Position numbers and translations under genes: made by a program
Notes under the pieces: model-generated
Seen by the model: the letters and a program-made list of their open reading frames with translations, nothing else
The model's database searches: none
Told to the model about the DNA's origin: nothing
In this document: in pieces, positions 5,900 to 59,636 of the stretch
Numbering within the stretch: position 1 is the first letter of the stretch
Layout: every line of letters begins with the position of its first letter
NCBI GenBank assembly: GCA_040398845.1
Contig: JBBATH010000004.1
Coordinates: 146,981 to 210,980 of the forward strand
DNA: 64,000 nucleotides
Direction: 5' to 3'
From: Candidatus Nanopelagicales bacterium
GTDB taxonomy: Bacteria > Actinomycetota > Actinomycetes > S36-B12

Positions 5900-7793
5900 A
5901 GTAGAACTTCCCTTCCTTTTTTGCTCGGACGAGGTACGTGTCGATCCTGGTGAACGTCAGTGCCGGCAGGGTCACCAGACCCTTCGACGTGGACTTCGCC
6001 GCTCCGAAGGACTTCCAGGAACCGCCGATCTTGACCTGTGCCGTGAATTTCGACTTTCGGGGAAGTCCGCTTATTCGAAGTCTTATCGGCTGGTTGACCG
6101 AAACGGCTATCTGCCGAGCGGAGTCGACGGTACGAGAAGCCTTCACTGTCTTTGACGTGCGAACGCTCACTGGACTACCCGATGCCGGGGTGTATACCCC
6201 GCCGCCAAGTGACTGGCCCGGCCGTAGGTACGTAAAGGAGTTCGCAAGGGTGCCGGTCGATCCCTGACGACTTACTGCGATCGCGACAGTCCCGGTCGTT
6301 CCATGAGCGGGGGTGCGGGCAGTGATGGTCGAACTTGAGCGAACAGTGACGCCGGTTGCTGCAATGCCTCCGATGGTGACGGTCTCGGACCCGGTGAATC
6401 CGCTTCCGTAGATGGAAATCGTCGTTCCGCCCGTCGTGAAACCTGATTTCGGAGAGAGTGATGTCAATCTTGGAGCCTCGGGCGCCGAGATGTTCACGAG
6501 AGAGATGGCGGACACCATCCCAGTTGCGGTGAATGTCAACGTGTAGGTGCCGGCCCCGCCGATCACGGCAAGATTGGTGAAGGCTGCAATACCGGCAACC
6601 GCCGCCACACTGACCGTGCCCGTGAGGGTGCCGCCTGAGCTCACCGACGCCGTCACCACCAGCGTGCTCGAAGTATTGGTGTTGCCTGCAGCGTCCCGTA
6701 TCGCCACCCTCGGTTGCGTCGCAAATACGACACCAGACTGCGATGCGGACGCCTCCGCCAGCACTCCTACGTTGCTCCCCGATCCAACCGTCGGCACAAC
6801 TGAGACGGTCGCACTCGTCAAGCCCGATGTCGCGAAGGTGATGACGTAAGCAGCACCAGCCGTGCCGCTAATACCCAAGTTGCTGAATGTAGCCAGGCCC
6901 GAAACTGTCGTTGCGGTCGTGGTGCCCACCAGGGTAGCGCCAGTAGACACTGTCGCAGTGACGACAGCGGCATACGATGTGATGCGGTTGCCGCTCGAAT
7001 CAACGACCGCGACCGCCGGTTGAGTTGTGAAGGCACTTCCCGAGGTGAATCCCGCAGGTGCGGTCGCAATCGACAATGCGGATGATGCGCCAACCAAGAC
7101 CAATGACTGACTTGCGACCGTGAGCGAGCCCGAGGTGAACGTCAGGGTGTAGGTCGAGCCCGTTGTGCCCGTCACCCCAAGGATTGAATAGGTGACGACC
7201 CCACTTACCGCAGCAACCGCAGTCGTTCCGATGGCGGTGGCCCCTGAACTGACAATCGCGGTAACAGTGACCGTGCTGCTCGTCACCTTGTTGCCAGCTG
7301 AGTCCCTGATCTCCACTGCGGGTTGGGTGGCGAAGGCCGTACCCGAAACCGCCCCGGCCGCATTCGTTGTGATCGCAAGTTTTGTTGCGGCGCCGGCAGC
7401 CGCAACAGTGATGGTCTGAGTGGCAACGGACAGGGTGCCGGAGTGGTAGGTGATCGTGTACGTCGTCCCGACTGTGCCCACGACTCCGAGCCCGGTGAAC
7501 GTAGCGACCCCAGAAACTGCCGCAATGCTGCCTGCCCCCACCAGGGTTGCCCCCGTGCTCACCGCTGCATAGACCGTTGAGGTGACCGTCGTGTCAGTCA
7601 CGTTCGTACTGTCCTGGATTGCGATGACCGGTTGCGTGGTGAAGACCGCACCGGATGTCACCGTCGCCGATGCGGCCGCGGTGGTCACGGTCAAGTGATC
7701 GGCAACTGCATGGGCTTGCGACAGTCCGATGAGTGATCCGCCAACCGCGAGCGCGATGACAACCCCACCGATCACGAATGATCGCAACTTCAC
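5880..7793 (-). CDS. secreted protein with four Ig-like (Big-type) repeats and an IPT/TIG domain
   Basis: ORF 5880..7874. Probable start is GTG 7793, which gives the signal peptide VKLRSFVIGGVVIALAVGGSLIGLSQAHA. Contains four ~100-aa repeats with the motif FxTQPxVxIxDxxGN...AAVSGVATFxxLGxxGxxGxxYxLTF, then an IPT/TIG-like unit (PRLTSLSPKSGFTTGGTTISIYGSGFTGSETVTIGG..FTYL). Confidence 0.8.
   Translation of the reverse strand: MKLRSFVIGGVVIALAVGGSLIGLSQAHAVADHLTVTTAAASATVTSGAVFTTQPVIAIQDSTNVTDTTVTSTVYAAVSTGATLVGAGSIAAVSGVATFTGLGVVGTVGTTYTITYHSGTLSVATQTITVAAAGAATKLAITTNAAGAVSGTAFATQPAVEIRDSAGNKVTSSTVTVTAIVSSGATAIGTTAVAAVSGVVTYSILGVTGTTGSTYTLTFTSGSLTVASQSLVLVGASSALSIATAPAGFTSGSAFTTQPAVAVVDSSGNRITSYAAVVTATVSTGATLVGTTTATTVSGLATFSNLGISGTAGAAYVITFATSGLTSATVSVVPTVGSGSNVGVLAEASASQSGVVFATQPRVAIRDAAGNTNTSSTLVVTASVSSGGTLTGTVSVAAVAGIAAFTNLAVIGGAGTYTLTFTATGMVSAISLVNISAPEAPRLTSLSPKSGFTTGGTTISIYGSGFTGSETVTIGGIAATGVTVRSSSTITARTPAHGTTGTVAIAVSRQGSTGTLANSFTYLRPGQSLGGGVYTPASGSPVSVRTSKTVKASRTVDSARQIAVSVNQPIRLRISGLPRKSKFTAQVKIGGSWKSFGAAKSTSKGLVTLPALTFTRIDTYLVRAKKEGKFYYVLASS
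6474..7694 (-). repeat. four tandem ~100-codon Ig-like domain repeats (protein-level repeat, diverged at DNA level)
   Basis: Repeat boundaries counted from the ORF translation (aa 61-467 of ORF 5880..7874). Confidence 0.7.
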
Positions 7794-53052: not shown

Positions 53053-53086
53053 TCCAAAGGGCCTCATTCGAGGCCGATGTCACCGA

Positions 53087-53121
53087 GCTTGCTGGTTCTC
53101 CAGCAAGCCCGGTGCTTTTTT
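53087..53121 (+). terminator. probable katG terminator
   Basis: Stem GCTTGCTGG / CCAGCAAGC with loop TTCT, followed 7 nt later by TTTTTT. A smaller hairpin GGCCTC-ATTC-GAGGCC lies at 53060-53075. Confidence 0.5.
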
Positions 53122-53185
53122 GGGGTGCTGTCGCACTGCCAGCAATGCTCGTGTGCTGAGCACAGCGTTACCTGTGTCCGTCCAG

Positions 53186-53244
53186 TACTATTTGCGGGTT
53201 GCAGTGAGTACAATCTGCGGATTAAATCGGGTATAATCTGCGGA
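53186..53244 (+). repeat. three direct repeats TAyWATyTGCGGr with exact 23-nt phasing upstream of DUF4143 gene 2
   Basis: TACTATTTGCGGG (53186), TACAATCTGCGGA (53209) and TATAATCTGCGGA (53232). The last copy contains TATAAT and ends 22 nt before ATG 53266. Confidence 0.7.
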
Positions 53245-53265
53245 ACTGACAACCCGGGAGTCGGC

Positions 53266-54516
53266 ATGGCATATCAAGCCCGCATCGCTGATGGCGAACT
53301 TGCGGCACGACTGGAGTCATCCGGCGCAGTACTCATTGAGGGGCCTAAAGCATGCGGAAAGACTGAGACCGCTCGCCAGCAGGCCGCTTCGGAGGTTCGT
53401 CTAGACGTCGACGGCCAACAACGTGCCGCCGCAGAAATCACCCCAGAACTCGTCCTCGATCGCCCTGCCCCACTCTTGATAGCCGAGTGGCAACTCGTGC
53501 CGTCAATTTGGGCCCACGTCCGCCGTGCCGTCGATGACCGCCAAGCACGCGGGCAGTTCATCCTTACCGGGTCAGCCACACCGAACGACGATGTATCCCG
53601 ACATTCAGGAGCCGGTCGGATCGCAGTCATGCGGTTGCGGCCCATGTGCCTCGCAGAATCCGGGCGCAGCACGGCGACGGTGTCCTTGACGAAACTGCTA
53701 GACGACAGCACACAGACTGCGGCTGACCCTGGCTTGACAGTGCCTGACCTTGCCACAGCGATCACCGTGGGTGGATGGCCGGCGGAACAGCGAACTCCCC
53801 CCGCGACTGTGTCCCGCAGCCTGCGCGACTATCTGACTCAGATCAGCCATGTGGATGTTGCAGCAGTGTCGGGAGGGCGCCGAGACCCGTCGAAGGTCGA
53901 TGCACTGCTGCGATCCTTGGCTCGAAATACGGCAAGCAAGGCCACGATCACAACACTCACGATCGATGCCACCGGACCTGGGGAAACGCTGGACCGCGAC
54001 TCCGTCAGTGGCTACCTCGCAATCCTCGAGCGCTTGATGGTTGTGGAGGACCAGCCGGCCTGGGCGCCGGCTATGCGTTCACGCGTGCAATTGCGCTCTT
54101 CTCCCAAACGACACTTCGTCGACCCGTCGCTGGCGGTGGCAGCGCTGCACGCCTCACCTGCCCTGCTTCTGGGCGATCTCGAGTCGATGGGGTTGCTTTT
54201 CGAATCCTTGGTGGTGCGCGACTTGCGGGTACTGGCGCAGCCGATCGACGGGCAAGTGCGGCATTACCGGGACAACAAGGGCCTTGAAGTCGACGCCATC
54301 GTGACCTGTGACGACGGCCGGTGGGGAGCCTTCGAGATCAAGCTCAGCTCCATGGGCATCGATGCGGCGGCGAAGAATCTTCTTGCGCTCGCGACCAAGA
54401 TTGACCGGGTTGCCTGTGGCGAACCGGGTGTACTCGCCGTTGTCACCGGCGCCGGCCTTGCCTACCGGCGTAAGGACGGAGTGCACGTCGTCCCTATCGG
54501 CACGCTGGGTCCCTGA
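53266..54516 (+). CDS. AAA+ ATP-binding protein with DUF4143 domain, paralog 2
   Basis: MAYQARIADGELAARLESSGAVLIEGPKACGKTETA (Walker A), LLIAEWQLVP, FILTGSA and a DUF4143-like C-terminal half. ATG 53266 was chosen within ORF 53077..54516. Confidence 0.85.
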   Translation: MAYQARIADGELAARLESSGAVLIEGPKACGKTETARQQAASEVRLDVDGQQRAAAEITPELVLDRPAPLLIAEWQLVPSIWAHVRRAVDDRQARGQFILTGSATPNDDVSRHSGAGRIAVMRLRPMCLAESGRSTATVSLTKLLDDSTQTAADPGLTVPDLATAITVGGWPAEQRTPPATVSRSLRDYLTQISHVDVAAVSGGRRDPSKVDALLRSLARNTASKATITTLTIDATGPGETLDRDSVSGYLAILERLMVVEDQPAWAPAMRSRVQLRSSPKRHFVDPSLAVAALHASPALLLGDLESMGLLFESLVVRDLRVLAQPIDGQVRHYRDNKGLEVDAIVTCDDGRWGAFEIKLSSMGIDAAAKNLLALATKIDRVACGEPGVLAVVTGAGLAYRRKDGVHVVPIGTLGP

Positions 54517-54660
54517 CGCCGGCTCAGTGCGAAGCAGCCGTTGAGGCGATCCGCTGAGAAGCACCAGTCTCTTTTCAATCCCGAGCACCTTGGGAAGAAC
54601 GGCCCCGGAACATGCGCTGTCACATGAGTAGAGTCACGAAATGGAAAGAAGCAATTCGCG

Positions 54661-55371
54661 GTGATCGCCACAGGAACTCCCGGTGAGGCCGCCCATGCGC
54701 GGCAAATCTACGTGGGGTGGGTGACTGCCGGGATCGAACGCTGCGAACGCGTGGTGACCTCGCTCAGTGATGCGGAGTTTGCCGAACCCAGTCGCCTGCC
54801 AGGTTGGACGAGGGCACATGTCATCGCTCACATCGACGGCAATGCCAGAGGCCTTGGCAATCTCGTGACCTGGGCAAGGGCTGGCATTGAGACCCCGATG
54901 TATACCTCGATGGAGCAGCGGGATGCCGACATAGAGGCGGGAGCCCTGCTCGCTCCCCAGGAACTGCGAGCCCGCCTCGTGCAGTCGAGTGCCCGGCTTG
55001 CAGATGGGTTCAAGAGTCTCCGTGAGGAAGATTGGTCAGTGCAGGTGCGCACGGCCCAAGGGCGGATGATCGCCGCGCGGGAGGTCATTTGGCTTCGGGC
55101 CCGTGAGCTCATGATCCACGCAGTCGATCTCGGGGGCGATGTCACCTTCGAAGACCTACCCGATGACTTCCTCATCGCACTTACCGATGAAGTCGTGGCG
55201 CGTCGAGGGACTCTGCCGGATCATCCTGCGATCGCGCTACGGGCGGGTGAGCACCGCTGGGACATCAGCGGCGAGGGTGCACCCGCTGTGGTCGACGGCA
55301 CGCTCCCCCAGATCGCTGCATATGTCACCGGACGCAGTTCACGTGAGCCCGCGCTACCTGGCTGGCTCTAG
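54661..55371 (+). CDS. maleylpyruvate isomerase family mycothiol-dependent enzyme (DinB fold)
   Basis: ..SDAEFAEPSRLPGWTRAHVIAHIDGNARGLGNLVTWA..MYTSMEQRDADIE..RELMIHAVDLG.. matches the actinobacterial mycothiol-dependent family signature. Confidence 0.8.
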   Translation: MIATGTPGEAAHARQIYVGWVTAGIERCERVVTSLSDAEFAEPSRLPGWTRAHVIAHIDGNARGLGNLVTWARAGIETPMYTSMEQRDADIEAGALLAPQELRARLVQSSARLADGFKSLREEDWSVQVRTAQGRMIAAREVIWLRARELMIHAVDLGGDVTFEDLPDDFLIALTDEVVARRGTLPDHPAIALRAGEHRWDISGEGAPAVVDGTLPQIAAYVTGRSSREPALPGWL

Positions 55372-55403
55372 ACATCAGAAGAGTCTCGTCGAGCAGCAGC
55401 GCC

Positions 55404-55739
55404 TCACGCCGCATAGACGACCTGCGCCTGGGCTAGGACCGCGTCCCTCAATCGAGCATGAAGCGCCCCCTTGGAGATCAGGTCGACCGGCCGGCCAAGC
55501 ACCTGTTCGAGATCGTCAGAGAGGTCGTTGATCGCCCACCCAAGGTGGACCCCATCGCGCAGCACGTACAGGACGTCAATATCGCTGTCAGGACGCGCTT
55601 CACCAGTGACAACCGATCCGAAGACGGCAAGCTCGGCAACGCCGTATTTCTCGCACGCCGCGCCGAGCGCGGCGAGATCAATGCCGGCCAGGGAAGACAA
55701 GTCGGCCACGATAGCGTCCATAGGGCGCTCTATCCGCAT
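55404..55739 (-). CDS. MntA-like minimal nucleotidyltransferase (no HepT/DUF86 partner present)
   Basis: ..YGVAELAVFGSVVTGEARPDSDIDVLYVL...LGRPVDLISKGAL.. shows the GSxxxGE...DxD NTase core. Start ATG 55739 (or 55721) within ORF 55404..55796. Lies 31 nt downstream of hipA on the same strand. Confidence 0.8.
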   Translation of the reverse strand: MRIERPMDAIVADLSSLAGIDLAALGAACEKYGVAELAVFGSVVTGEARPDSDIDVLYVLRDGVHLGWAINDLSDDLEQVLGRPVDLISKGALHARLRDAVLAQAQVVYAA

Positions 55740-55770
55740 GGAGGTCTCTGAATTCTCGACCAGCCGGGGT

Positions 55771-57108
55771 TCAGTGCTGGTTGCCGATCGCACCAAGCGA
55801 CCACGGCCGCAGTCTGCTCAGGCAGCTGGTGACGTGGGCTGCGATCGCGTCCGCGAGCCGATCCGGGAGGGGTGAGTCCCACCGGCCTCGAGACACCTCG
55901 ATCACCTCCCGAGACTCGTCAAGAAGCTGCTCGCTCATGCGTCGAACTCGCCGGAGCACCTCGCCGGGATCCACGCGGCAATCACGAGCGAGCTCGTCCC
56001 AGGCTTCGCGTCCGATCGCGTCAGGATCCCTCTCGCTGAATCCGATCCTCATGCTGAGGCTGACCGAGCGGTCACCGCGGTAGGGCAGATAAGAGTTGAG
56101 GTCGTACAGCGGGGCTAGTCGCGTCGCGGTGCGGCTGTGCAGCAGCGAATAGTTGCGCGCGTGCGCATCCGTGCCGACGACGAGCCAGTTGAAGGCGAGT
56201 GCATCGATGAAGTAATCGACGTCATGTTCTGCGTGACCGCCGGTTACCTGCTGTCGAAGCAGACGAGTGATGTCGATGACGTCCCGGCCCGCCTGCGCCT
56301 CGTACTTGCGGGTGGGCGACAAGCCCCTCGCCTGAACAGTGTCCTCCTGATGTATTCGGAGCCATTCGTCGCGAGAATCCTGGCGTCGGTCGAACCGGGT
56401 GACGATGAGTGCGCGCTCACCGTCGAATTCGGCCACTTCTGTCGGTGCGACCGGAAGCCCGACCGAAGCAGCCAGCCTCATTGTGAGGTGCTCGTTCAGG
56501 TCTTGATCGGCCAGCGCTGGGATTGCGGGCTTGAAGATGTGGGTCGATGGCACCTGTCCAGTCGACGCAGCCCACCCCGTGCTCGTGCGAGCGAGGGCGA
56601 ATTTGGCCTGCGCACCGGCGAGACTGAACTGACCCTGTGCGCTCGAAGCGGCCCAGGCTGTCGAGTCGGTGGCAATCTCGCGCAGCCGGTCACCTATCTG
56701 TTGGTCAGTGACCCGCTCAAACCCGCCAATTGATGGCGACGTCTCTGGGTGGACGAACGCGGCCGCTCCGGCGACGTCCTGACCAACGTGCCACAGCATC
56801 GCGTACGGGTCCAGGCGCTTGATGCCGTATAGCGCGCGCCAGCGGTTGAGCACCTCGCTCCGGTCGGGCAGGAGTCCTCCGAGCCAATGCGAGACCACCT
56901 GGCCGGAGTGCTGGCGGATGGAAACGGGGAGGCTGCACGACAGACCACCAGTTACCTCGCGTGCGTCGTCGGCGTAGGTGAGCTTGACCGCTCGCGCGTT
57001 GGGGCTGTCGAGCGCAGCTATGACACGGCCGTGCATGAAGACGTCGAGACGTCTCCCCACTTCGCCCGAGCGCAGCGGCCCTGGTGGCTGTCGGTGCTGC
57101 TTGCTCAC
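55771..57108 (-). CDS. hipA: HipA family serine/threonine kinase toxin
   Basis: LDVFMHGRVIAAL..(N-terminal coupling domain), FSLAGAQAKFAL, and the catalytic loop GTDAHARNYSLL. Its GTG start overlaps the hipB-like stop (GTGA). Confidence 0.88.
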   Translation of the reverse strand: MSKQHRQPPGPLRSGEVGRRLDVFMHGRVIAALDSPNARAVKLTYADDAREVTGGLSCSLPVSIRQHSGQVVSHWLGGLLPDRSEVLNRWRALYGIKRLDPYAMLWHVGQDVAGAAAFVHPETSPSIGGFERVTDQQIGDRLREIATDSTAWAASSAQGQFSLAGAQAKFALARTSTGWAASTGQVPSTHIFKPAIPALADQDLNEHLTMRLAASVGLPVAPTEVAEFDGERALIVTRFDRRQDSRDEWLRIHQEDTVQARGLSPTRKYEAQAGRDVIDITRLLRQQVTGGHAEHDVDYFIDALAFNWLVVGTDAHARNYSLLHSRTATRLAPLYDLNSYLPYRGDRSVSLSMRIGFSERDPDAIGREAWDELARDCRVDPGEVLRRVRRMSEQLLDESREVIEVSRGRWDSPLPDRLADAIAAHVTSCLSRLRPWSLGAIGNQH

Positions 57109-57440
57109 GTTCGGCTCACGCCAGTTCGAAAGGTTGCCAGGTATGCGTCGAGATCGATGTCGTCCTGGTTCGCAATGGGACCCAATGGCGGAACGGATGA
57201 GACGTCGTCGACGAGGTCAGCGCGGAGGGGGACATCGAGTGCGTTCAACAGGGCAAGGACGCGCCACACTTCGGCGTTGGGATGCCGGCCACCCTCAAGC
57301 AGGTTGACCAGACGCCGCGAGACACCGGCGGCATCAGCCGCCTCCTGCTGACTCCAACCGTTCCGCGCACGGGCGGCGCGCAAAATCTGGCTAAGGTCAG
57401 TAACGTCCTCGATCTCCACGGTGCCGCCTCCCTCTGTCAC
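57105..57440 (-). CDS. hipB: XRE-type HTH antitoxin, HipB-like
   Basis: LSQILRAARARNGWSQQEAADAAGVSRRLVNLLEGG is a typical HTH. Translationally coupled to hipA. The start could instead be the internal GTG at 57419. Confidence 0.8.
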   Translation of the reverse strand: MTEGGGTVEIEDVTDLSQILRAARARNGWSQQEAADAAGVSRRLVNLLEGGRHPNAEVWRVLALLNALDVPLRADLVDDVSSVPPLGPIANQDDIDLDAYLATFRTGVSRT

Positions 57441-57509
57441 GGATCTGTTACGTCCGTAGAAGAGTCATAGTACCGACACATTGGGTGAATGTCTTGGAAC
57501 CATTACATC

Positions 57510-58244
57510 TCAATGCTCCTTCGAACGCTCGAGTCTCTTGCGCCAGGCGCTGAATGAACCTGCCGGTCCGGCATGCGGCCGCGCGAGCCACGGCCACGGG
57601 TGGATCTCATCAGGCTCGATGAGGCTGCTGCGCCGCCGCCATCCGGGCACCGGCGCGAAGGTCGTGGCGAGGCATTCGGTGAGGAATACCCATCTTTTTC
57701 CTGTCAATCGGAGCCGAGCGAGCAGCGTTTCGTCGAAGACAAAGACCGCTGGCAGGTCCGGGTTCGCGGCGAGCGCCGGATCCTCGTCACCGAGCGACTC
57801 AGCCGTGATCCAGACTCGGCTCACCTCGGTTCGGCGCTCCACCTCTCGAGGCCCGGCGGTGGCTTCAGGGTCGAAGTCGGCACGGACTCCGGCAGGTGCC
57901 GTCACCTGTGCGAGCACCGGGTCGTCTCCGTACCGTTGAATCGGGCACGCTTGGCGAAGAGCGCAACCTGCACAGAGGTCCGGTGCGCGCCGCTCAACCT
58001 AGACGCGAGCGAATCCGTAGGCACGGCCTAGACCATCACCGACAGTCCACTGCCAGCCGAGCCTGTTGGCTGCTCGCGAGCCGTCGAGCAGGTGGGCGCT
58101 TTGCGGGCCGCAGAACGCAGCGACGCGAGGGGCTCGACGTGCCACGGCTCGGTCAGGGTGCGATGTGGATGTGGGCCGTTCAGCATGTGGGGCATGACTG
58201 CGGCAGCAGTTCACGCCGAGCAACTCCGCTCGCAGGGGAGCCTC
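57510..58244 (-). pseudogene. cryptochrome/photolyase-family remnant(s) with an in-frame TAG
   Basis: ORF 57999..58223 ends ..AHLLDGSRAANRLGWQWTVGDGLGRAYGFARV*, resembling the FAD-binding-domain motif LLDxDxAxNxGxWQWxAG. Reading continues in frame after TAG (57999-58001) into ..DLCAGCALRQACP.. and ORF 57510..57917, whose ..RVWITAESLGDEDPAL..VFVFDE..KRWVFLTECL resembles a photolyase N-terminal domain. At most about 245 codons are available, far short of a full photolyase, and the domain order is scrambled. Confidence 0.4.
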
Positions 58245-58263
58245 TCATCTCGCGGGGAGTCCG

Positions 58264-59636
58264 TCAGCTCTCGTCGGCCTGTGGTTCGGGCAGCGTCCAG
58301 CGCTCGCCTTGCTTGGGACGGATGAAGATCGAGTACCAGATGACGCCGACGAGGATTGAGGCAACCGCGACGATCAGCGGAGTCGGATCAGTCGCAAGGA
58401 TCTTGTACAGCACATAGGCCAAAAACGCGATGACAATGAGCGGCGGCAGCGGCCACAGCTGCATGCGGTAGTGGTCGGGCCGTCCACCCGAGGCCGATCG
58501 GGCGCGAAGCGACGCGAATGCGATCGCGACGTAGATCACGACGACCGTTGCGCTCGTTGCCACGATCAGCCATCCGAACGGGAGAAGATATCCGGCAGCA
58601 GCTGCGAGAACGCCGACAAGGACCGTCGCCGCAATGGGCGATTTCGTCCGTGCGTTGATCGACCCAAGCAATCGGTCGACGCCAACCGGCCACGAACGGT
58701 CACGGGCGGATGCGAAAACCAATCGCGCATTCTGAATCTGGATCGCAATCACCGCGTTGAACACGGAAATCGCGATCCCAATGCTGACAAGCATGTTCAC
58801 GGTTTCGCCCCCGCGCTGCAGCAGAAACTCGTTCAATGGAGCTTCTGACGCCATAAGCGACTCGAGGGAGTCTGCTCCGAGAATGACGGCCATGACCGGC
58901 AGCAGCTCAACGAGGACCGTGACAAGAAGGGACACCATGACCGCACGGGCCATCGTCTTCGAGGCGTTCTTCGTCTCCTCGGAGTAGAAGACGGCTGTGC
59001 CGTATCCGCCGTAGGCGAAGAGCGCAACGGAGACAAGTGAGAACAAGACACCCCACGTCACCGGTTCAAGACCGCCGGACGCTCCAAGCGTCTGCGGCGT
59101 CACGAATGTGTCGAGGCCGCGCTGAATGTCCGAGAAACCGAGCACGACGAGGACGAGAACGGCGAATACCTCAAGTCCGAGGAAGATTCCTGTCACCTAG
59201 GCATTCGTCCTGATCGTGAAGCAGGCCACGACCGTGGTGATGACGATGATCGTCGTCCACGGTGAGTCGAAGCCATCCCAGACGACCGAGAGATAGGTGC
59301 CCACCCGGACCCAATGACGGAGATGATGAAAATCCCAGCCATGAGCGACAGCGTGAGGGCCTCAAAGCCCATCGGCTTTCCAAGAAGTCGGGCGGCCCAT
59401 GTGTATTCACCCCCGCTTATCGGCCACCGGCTCGAAAGCTCGGCGTAGCAAAGCCCGACGAAGATCGCGAGGAAGGCCGCGATCACCATGGCCGCGACAC
59501 TGCCGCCCGCGAGCCCCACGATCAGCGAAGGGATAATGAAGACGCTGGACGCCGGAGTTACCGTCGAAAGCGTGATGAGGATGTTCTCTCGAAGCGTGAG
59601 GCTGCGGGCAAGTTCTTGCCGGTACTCGTTCGACAT
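58264..59636 (-). pseudogene. APC superfamily amino acid permease disrupted by a frameshift and an in-frame TAG
   Basis: The N-terminal part from ATG 59636 (MSNEYRQELARSLTLRENILITLSTVTPASSVF..GGEYTWAARLLG..) leaves frame near 59304-59306, a C-run. The shifted frame reads VGTYLSVVWDGFDSPWTTIIVITTVVACFTIRTNA and then hits TAG at 59197-59199. It continues in frame as ORF 58264..59196 (..FAYGGYGTAVFYSEETKN..). Confidence 0.75.

What the first reader, a model, noticed from the sequence alone, without database searches (positions are those of the whole stretch)
55404..57440. Three-gene hipB-hipA-nucleotidyltransferase operon: an MntA-like NTase without HepT sits directly behind a HipA kinase toxin
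The hipB-like HTH and hipA overlap (GTGA). A 111-aa MntA-type minimal nucleotidyltransferase with an intact GSxxxGE...DxD core follows 31 nt downstream on the same strand. In known MNT-HEPN modules, the NTase is the antitoxin that (poly)adenylylates its HepT toxin. No DUF86/HEPN ORF exists here: the next gene is convergent and ends at 55371. The NTase could be a third component that modulates HipA or a HipA target, by analogy with tripartite HipBST-type systems. It could also be a stranded antitoxin after HepT loss.
Basis: partly seen in the sequence, partly recalled or inferred. Interest (0 to 1): 0.6.

Follow-up and report, generated by a model that had tools for sequence, protein, structure and literature searches.

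The report
hipBA beside a stranded MntA antitoxin
The nucleotidyltransferase behind the HipA kinase gene is the leftover antitoxin of a separate MntA-HepT toxin-antitoxin pair whose toxin gene was deleted, so this is two neighbouring modules, one of them decaying, and not a new three-part HipA system.

Summary
hipB (57105-57440) and hipA (55771-57108) overlap by GTGA, and an intact GSX10DXD minimal nucleotidyltransferase follows at 55404-55739. The first 31 nt (10 codons, MRREALLLDE) of a hepT gene survive at 55384-55414. They start at an ATG that overlaps the NTase stop by 11 nt, as in every intact mntA-hepT pair among the NTase's relatives (65-87% identity). None of those pairs lies near a HipA gene. 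Syntenic sister contigs keep a longer hepT stump (at least 31 codons) that lacks the RX4HXY catalytic motif; the window lost about 92 nt more.

In the sister contigs the NTase is frameshifted (L023), cut by an IS630-family insertion (L042) or loaded with private amino-acid changes (L001). L001 also carries a nonsense codon in hipA.

HipA relatives at 82% identity lack the NTase, and their hipA abuts the katG terminator. None of 22 further HipA loci (37-66% identity) shows an NTase. 15 of the 18 reference-genome loci have more than 1 kb of downstream sequence.

Verdict: an ordinary hipBA module next to an orphan MntA antitoxin left by HepT loss. Interest is low.

The parts
57105..57440 (-). hipB-like XRE/HTH antitoxin gene (111 aa; a GTG 7 codons further in would give 104 aa, as called in L001)
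   Evidence: Pfam HTH_31 4e-11 and HTH_3 2e-08. NCBIfam couple_hipB 3e-12, below its cut-off. Its stop overlaps the hipA start as GTGA. dN/dS 0.05 against sister contigs.
55771..57108 (-). hipA Ser/Thr kinase toxin gene (445 aa). The last 10 codons are a window-specific extension caused by a TAG to TGG change at codon 436.
   Evidence: Pfam HipA_C 9e-50 and Couple_hipA 5e-14. phmmer against E. coli HipA 3tpd gives 2e-33, and the P-loop SLAGAQAK, THIFK, DAHARN and YD motifs align to S150, K181, D309 and D332 (residue numbers from my own knowledge of E. coli HipA). Sister contigs stop at codon 436.
55404..55739 (-). Orphan mntA-like minimal nucleotidyltransferase (111 aa from the ATG at 55739; the conserved start at 55721 gives 105 aa)
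   Evidence: NTP_transf_2 3e-14 and Polbeta 1e-10. MntA_antitoxin 47.7 bits against a 60-bit cut-off. The GSX10DXD motif is intact. Relatives at 65-87% identity are paired with HepT.
55384..55414 (-). hepT 5' remnant: 31 nt, codons 1-10 (MRREALLLDE). Its ATG overlaps the mntA stop by 11 nt. The rest of the gene is deleted.
   Evidence: Translation compared with intact HepT proteins MRREALLLDEIITAAQRATD.... DNA alignments. A four-sequence HepT HMM hits this frame (E 0.018) and the longer L023 stump (E 7e-12).
54661..55371 (+). Convergent mycothiol-dependent maleylpyruvate isomerase-family gene. Its 3' end marks the far side of the deletion.
   Evidence: TIGR03083 2.5e-28 and MDMPI_N 4e-26. The same neighbour is present in L001 and L023.
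53121..55770 (.). 2.65-kb block that is present in this lineage but absent between hipA and the katG terminator in the lineage with 82%-identical HipA. It holds the AAA_14/DUF4143 ATPase gene, the isomerase-family gene, the hepT stump and mntA.
   Evidence: blastn of L025 and L028 against the window and the junction sequences.

Best explanation
Two independent toxin-antitoxin modules lie side by side. One is a complete, apparently functional type II hipBA pair: an HTH antitoxin/repressor plus a HipA Ser/Thr kinase toxin, which by family knowledge phosphorylates an aminoacyl-tRNA synthetase. The other is the wreck of a type VII mntA-hepT pair.

In an ancestor of this lineage, a deletion removed roughly the 3' two-thirds of hepT, including the RX4HXY RNase and AMPylation motif. 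Losing the toxin first is the only order of loss that the cell survives. The antitoxin gene mntA was left without a partner. The window then lost about 92 nt more of the hepT stump, leaving 10 codons.

The orphan NTase is intact here and may be transcribed by read-through from hipBA. That step is inferred; no terminator or promoter was detected either way. It has no dedicated role in HipA control, and it is being lost by frameshift, IS insertion and amino-acid drift in sister strains.
For: 1. The hepT remnant sits at the exact orthologous position. Its ATG overlaps the mntA stop by 11 nt, and its first 10 codons are identical to the intact HepT of L002.
2. Syntenic sister contigs L023 and L001 keep a longer hepT stump. 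It matches intact HepT over at least the first 31 codons (tblastn). It is truncated at the same point, before RNRIVHGY (HMM E 7e-12).
3. NTase relatives sit in intact mntA-hepT pairs with the same 11-nt overlap in unrelated neighbourhoods without HipA. These are L002/L003 (87%), L004 (78%), L033-35 (76%), L039-41 (65%, HTH-fused) and L043.
4. The adjacency does not recur outside the lineage. L025-28 (HipA 82%) have hipA running straight into the katG terminator. L029-32 (66%) and 18 reference-genome loci (37-61%) show no NTase or HepT by tblastn or by HMM search. 15 of the 18 have more than 1 kb of downstream sequence.
5. The parts decay independently. L023 has an NTase frameshift with hipA intact. 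L042 has the NTase 3' end replaced by a DDE_3 (IS630-family) element. L001 has a hipA nonsense codon at position 206 and an NTase dN/dS of 0.77 with about 8 private replacements.
6. A second, independent orphan NTase with a 42-codon hepT stump (L036-38) shows that this outcome is recurrent.
Against: The window's NTase is intact with a complete catalytic motif. Its dN/dS against L024 (0.07) and L023 (0.13) is low, although this rests on only 6-14 substitutions. Some retained function therefore cannot be excluded.

The gap to hipA is short and no terminator was detected, so co-transcription is likely. The sister sequences are metagenome contigs, so single frameshifts could be assembly errors. 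The L023 contig was, however, seen in 2 samples.

The rest of the genome is unseen, so a trans-acting HepT partner elsewhere cannot be ruled out.
Confidence: 0.87

Rival explanations
1. The orphan MntA is kept because it is still useful in trans. It could act as an anti-addiction or immunity factor, or as a spare antitoxin that AMPylates HepT toxins encoded elsewhere in the genome or brought in by mobile elements. It would have no link to HipA.
For: The ORF and the GSX10DXD motif are intact. dN/dS against L024 and L023 is low (0.07 and 0.13). Related genomes can carry several mntA-hepT pairs close together (L043).
Against: The gene is frameshifted in L023, IS-disrupted in L042 and drifting in L001. 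No HepT-like sequence exists elsewhere in the 64-kb window. The substitution counts are too small to demonstrate selection.
Confidence: 0.1
2. The NTase is a true third component of a tripartite HipB-HipA-NTase system that nucleotidylylates HipA or its target and so modulates toxicity.
For: The genes are on the same strand with a 31-49 nt gap. No terminator was detected between hipA and the NTase. The arrangement is shared by five contigs of one lineage.
Against: All five contigs are syntenic close relatives, so they represent one event. The hepT remnant shows that the NTase arrived as half of a canonical mntA-hepT pair. HipA at 82% identity at the same chromosomal site lacks the NTase. None of the 22 more distant HipA loci shows it. 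L023 and L042 have an inactivated NTase, with an intact hipA in L023 and an uninterrupted C-terminal hipA fragment in L042. The published survey of Hip kinase gene organisations does not mention nucleotidyltransferase or HEPN partners (PMC8262856).
Confidence: 0.03

Closest known systems
HipBA type II toxin-antitoxin module (E. coli HipA/HipB)
   Same: It has a full-length HipA with the N-terminal Couple_hipA domain and the HipA_C kinase domain. The P-loop and catalytic Asp motifs are conserved. The upstream HTH antitoxin gene overlaps hipA by 4 nt.
   Different: Identity to E. coli HipA is low (phmmer E 2e-33). The host is an uncultured actinobacterium. The window's allele has a 10-aa C-terminal read-through extension. 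Its target and toxicity are untested.
MntA-HepT (MNT-HEPN) type VII toxin-antitoxin module (Shewanella oneidensis SO_3165/SO_3166; PMC7641770)
   Same: The NTase carries the GSX10DXD motif that defines MntA. Its closest relatives are followed, with an 11-nt overlap, by 111-115 aa HepT proteins with RX4HXY (RNRIVHGY).
   Different: Only 10 codons of hepT remain here, so the module has no toxin and is not a functional TA pair. The NTase scores below the NCBIfam MntA equivalog cut-off (47.7 against 60 bits).
HipBST tripartite system (E. coli O127, Legionella)
   Same: Three same-strand genes that include an HTH protein and a Hip kinase.
   Different: In HipBST the kinase (HipT) is short, and the third protein (HipS) corresponds to the HipA N-terminal subdomain and lies between hipB and hipT. 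Here HipA is full length, and the third gene is an unrelated NTase lying downstream. It is not conserved with hipA.

Membership tests
HipBA type II TA | Toxin with a HipA_C kinase domain plus the HipA N-terminal domain | tested here: met
   PF07804 at 8.9e-50 (169.7 bits, cut-off 30.5). PF13657 at 4.8e-14. TIGR03071 at 6.9e-16.
HipBA type II TA | Conserved kinase residues: the P-loop Ser, the ATP-binding Lys, the catalytic Asp and the Mg-binding Asp | tested here: met
   The alignment to E. coli HipA 3tpd pairs SLAGAQAK with SVAGAQEK, THIFK with THIIK, TDAHARN with TDGHAKN, and PLYD with PFYD. Residue numbering comes from my own knowledge.
HipBA type II TA | Upstream, translationally coupled HTH (HipB) antitoxin gene | tested here: met
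   GTGA overlap at 57105-57108. HTH_31 and HTH_3. The couple_hipB subfamily model matches at 3e-12 but scores below its cut-off (46 against 71.65 bits).
HipBA type II TA | Growth arrest by the kinase, neutralised by HipB | not testable with these tools
   Requires expression assays.
MntA-HepT type VII TA | MNT protein with the GSX10DXD motif (PMC7641770) | tested here: met
   GSVVTGEARPDSDID in the 55404-55739 ORF. PF01909 at 3.4e-14.
MntA-HepT type VII TA | Adjacent HepT (PF01934 or PF08780) gene with the RX4HXY motif | tested here: not met
   Only a 31-nt 5' remnant at 55384-55414 remains. The motif region is deleted. No other HepT-like sequence occurs in the window.
MntA-HepT type VII TA | Score above the NCBIfam MntA_antitoxin equivalog cut-off | tested here: not met
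   47.7 bits against a cut-off of 60. The gene is a relative by descent, shown by its paired homologues, but it is not a curated equivalog.
MntA-HepT type VII TA | Descent from a paired module (closest homologues are paired with HepT) | tested here: met
   L002/L003, L004, L033-35, L039-41 and L043 all show NTase plus HepT with an 11-nt overlap.
Tripartite Hip system (HipBST-like) | A third gene consistently co-occurring with the kinase across lineages | tested here: not met
   The NTase is present only where HipA is at least 86% identical. It was not found in L025-28 (82%), L029-32 (66%) or 18 reference-genome loci.
Tripartite Hip system (HipBST-like) | A short kinase lacking the N-subdomain, plus a HipS-like antitoxin | tested here: not met
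   HipA here is 445 aa and includes Couple_hipA. The third protein is an NTP_transf_2 NTase.

The most novel reading that the evidence does not exclude
After losing HepT, the intact and probably hipBA-co-transcribed MntA in this strain has been co-opted. It could serve as a stand-alone immunity factor against incoming HepT toxins, or as a nucleotidyltransferase acting on a new substrate such as HipA, HipB or the HipA target.
Probability: 0.05. Interest if true: 0.6.

Novelty: new member of a known kind. Interest (0 to 1): 0.15.

Why it matters
It matters mainly as a caution. Same-strand adjacency of TA genes in a variable chromosomal spot can look like a new multi-component system. A few dozen leftover bases and a handful of sister contigs were enough to show that it is module decay.

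It is also a clean, stepwise natural example of how an MntA-HepT pair dies. The toxin is truncated first. The stump then erodes further. The orphan antitoxin is then lost by different routes in different strains. It does not open a new question about HipA regulation.

Tried and rejected
1. A tblastn hit of HepT (L002) at window 58145-58351 (E 0.001) is rejected. It contains an in-frame stop, and it is not found with HepT of L004 or with the HepT HMM (E 3.6). I treat it as chance.
2. The consensus promoter and terminator scan of 55200-57700 found nothing. It is uninformative for a high-GC actinobacterium and is used only as 'no terminator detected'.
3. The genome-contig scan with HipA found no genome carrying this locus (best 61% identity). 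The host species could therefore not be named; its nearest relatives are Candidatus Nanopelagicales MAGs.
4. dN/dS on the NTase was meant to decide between 'selected' and 'drifting'. With 6-16 substitutions per comparison it cannot decide for the window's copy.
5. Structure prediction of a HipA-NTase complex was considered but not run, because the comparative evidence had already removed the rationale for it.

Full report
**Observation**

The minus strand of 55404-57440 carries three ORFs, as described.
- A 111-aa HTH protein lies at 57105-57440. It matches HTH_31 at 4e-11 and the couple_hipB subfamily at 3e-12.
- A 445-aa HipA lies at 55771-57108. It matches HipA_C at 9e-50 and Couple_hipA at 5e-14. 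Its GTG start overlaps the hipB TGA stop as GTGA.
- A minimal nucleotidyltransferase lies at 55404-55739. It matches NTP_transf_2 at 3e-14 and Polbeta at 1e-10. It scores 47.7 bits against the NCBIfam MntA_antitoxin model, below the 60-bit cut-off.

The NTase motif GSVVTGEARPDSDID fits GSX10DXD, which defines MntA (PMC7641770). HipA aligns to E. coli HipA (3tpd, E 2e-33) with the P-loop, Lys and both Asp motifs conserved. The convergent gene ending at 55371 belongs to the mycothiol-dependent maleylpyruvate isomerase family (TIGR03083, 2.5e-28).

**The hepT remnant**

Directly at the NTase stop the sequence reads ATGCGGCGTGA. The ATG lies 11 nt inside the NTase gene and opens a frame encoding MRREALLLDETLLMSRASQ....

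I retrieved the neighbourhoods of the closest NTase homologues. In L002 and L003 (87% identity) and L004 (78%), the NTase is followed by a 113-aa PF01934 HepT with the same 11-nt overlap. That HepT begins MRREALLLDEIITAAQRATDIA... and carries RNRIVHGY, which fits RX4HXY.

The window therefore retains the first 31 nt (10 codons) of hepT, at 55384-55414. After that point the similarity stops, 12 nt before the stop codon of the convergent gene.

**Sister contigs show the steps**

Three metagenome contigs share the window's synteny at 94-96% DNA identity. L001 and L023 cover the hipB, hipA, NTase, isomerase-family and DUF4143-ATPase genes, and L023 also reaches katG. L024 covers only hipB, hipA and part of the NTase, at 87% identity.

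- L023 keeps the first 113-127 nt of hepT. The stump stays in frame and matches intact HepT over at least 31 codons (MRREVLLLDEIISAVQRAIDIATRHVVEDLG...; tblastn, HepT HMM E 7e-12). It ends before the RX4HXY region.
- L001 has the same truncation point plus small frameshifts.
- Relative to both, the window carries a further deletion of about 92 nt.

The order of events is therefore a 3' truncation of hepT in the common ancestor, followed by further erosion in the window's line.

**The remaining genes decay independently**

- In L023 the NTase has a 1-nt deletion (80-aa ORF) while hipA is intact.
- In L042 (NTase 97% identical), homology ends at window position 55433. An IS630-family (DDE_3) element replaces the NTase 3' end.
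- In L001 hipA has a TAG at codon 206. Its NTase shows 11 non-synonymous against 5 synonymous differences from the window (dN/dS 0.77). About eight of the replacements are private to L001 when polarised with L002, L004 and L024.
- The window's NTase is intact. Its dN/dS against L024 (0.07) and L023 (0.13) is low, but the counts are only 6-14 substitutions, so this does not establish selection.

**Does the hipA-NTase adjacency recur?**

It recurs only within this lineage.
- Contigs L025-L028 (HipA 82% identical) have hipB and hipA followed, 34 nt after the hipA stop, by sequence homologous to window 53120-53013. That sequence is the hairpin terminator just downstream of katG.
- The 2.65-kb block 53121-55770 is therefore an indel between lineages. 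It holds the DUF4143 ATPase gene, the isomerase-family gene, the hepT stump and mntA. hipBA exists at this chromosomal site without any NTase.
- L029-32 (HipA 66%) lie in a TA island with PIN, Phd/ParE and an integrase. A convergent gene starts 29 nt after hipA.
- Eighteen reference-genome loci with HipA at 37-61% identity show no NTase or HepT, either by tblastn or by an HMM built from 90-135-aa NTase homologues. 15 of the 18 have more than 1 kb of downstream sequence.
- Conversely, the NTase family sits in mntA-hepT pairs in six unrelated neighbourhoods.
- One further case, L036-38, is another orphan with a 42-codon hepT stump whose start codon is lost. Toxin loss that strands MntA is therefore recurrent.

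**Mechanism**

- *Shown:* the anatomy, the remnant, the order of the deletions and the lack of co-occurrence.
- *From family knowledge:* HipB represses and neutralises HipA, a kinase that blocks translation by phosphorylating an aminoacyl-tRNA synthetase (PMC8262856). MntA neutralises HepT RNase by oligo-AMPylating the Tyr of RX4HXY (PMC7641770).
- *Inferred:* once hepT was truncated, mntA had no substrate and is drifting towards loss. In the window it is probably still transcribed by read-through from hipBA, because the gap is short and no terminator was found (a weak test).

The published survey of Hip kinase gene organisations contains no mention of nucleotidyltransferase or HEPN partners.

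**Comparison and novelty**

This is a new member of two known kinds, hipBA and a degraded mntA-hepT pair, lying side by side. It fails the defining features of a tripartite Hip system. There is no conserved third gene, HipA is full length and there is no HipS-like protein. As a module it also fails the MntA-HepT definition, because it has no HepT. The NTase nonetheless descends from such a pair.

The residual novel possibility is that the orphan has been co-opted. I put this at about 5%.

**Verdict**

Interest is low.

Noticed in passing
window 55771-55803 (-): The window's HipA is 10 aa longer than in L001, L023 and L024. The ancestral TAG stop at codon 436 is TGG here, so translation runs on to a TGA. 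This change, and not operon design, produces the short 31-nt gap to the NTase ORF.
   Followed up: partly
window 53083-53121: A GC-rich hairpin (GCTTGCTGGTTCTCCAGCAAGC) followed by a T-run lies just after the katG stop. It looks like the katG intrinsic terminator. In L025 and L028 it lies 34 nt from the hipA stop, so it may serve both convergent genes there.
   Followed up: partly
window 53121-55770 compared with L025:2152-2292: A 2.65-kb block (AAA_14/DUF4143 ATPase, isomerase-family gene, hepT stump, mntA) is present in the window's lineage but absent in the lineage with 82%-identical HipA. Whether this is an insertion or a deletion was not resolved.
   Followed up: partly
L036:2501-3003 (also L037, L038): An independent orphan NTase (71% identical) is followed by a 42-codon hepT stump whose start codon is mutated (ACG). 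It sits next to a Phd/ParE pair.
   Followed up: partly
L039:2501-3356 (also L040, L041; proteins P0040, P0044, P0046, P0048, P0050, P0052, P0054, P0063): A subgroup of this NTase family is fused to an N-terminal XRE-type HTH domain (164-176 aa). In the one case examined (P0040) it is still followed by HepT. This would be an MntA with a built-in DNA-binding domain.
   Followed up: no
L043:4001-4589 and 7039-7672: Two mntA-hepT pairs lie within 3.7 kb on one contig. The first has a shortened NTase (83 aa) and lies next to Gp49-family and DUF433/DUF5615 TA-like genes.
   Followed up: no
L042:985-2110: An IS630-family (DDE_3) element is inserted at the NTase 3' end. The sequence beyond the IS does not match the window, so a rearrangement accompanied the insertion.
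   Followed up: partly
L024 compared with window 55461-57506: Divergence is uneven along the locus. hipA has dS 0.27 but the adjacent NTase has dS 0.08, which suggests recombination within the locus.
   Followed up: no
window 57510-57917 (-): A 135-aa ORF upstream of hipB has no Pfam or NCBIfam hit. The DNA up to about 57670-57730 is conserved in L001 and L025.
   Followed up: no
L029:435-5299 (also L030-L032): The 66%-identical hipBA lies in a toxin-antitoxin island with two PIN-domain genes, a Phd/ParE pair and a phage-type integrase.
   Followed up: no
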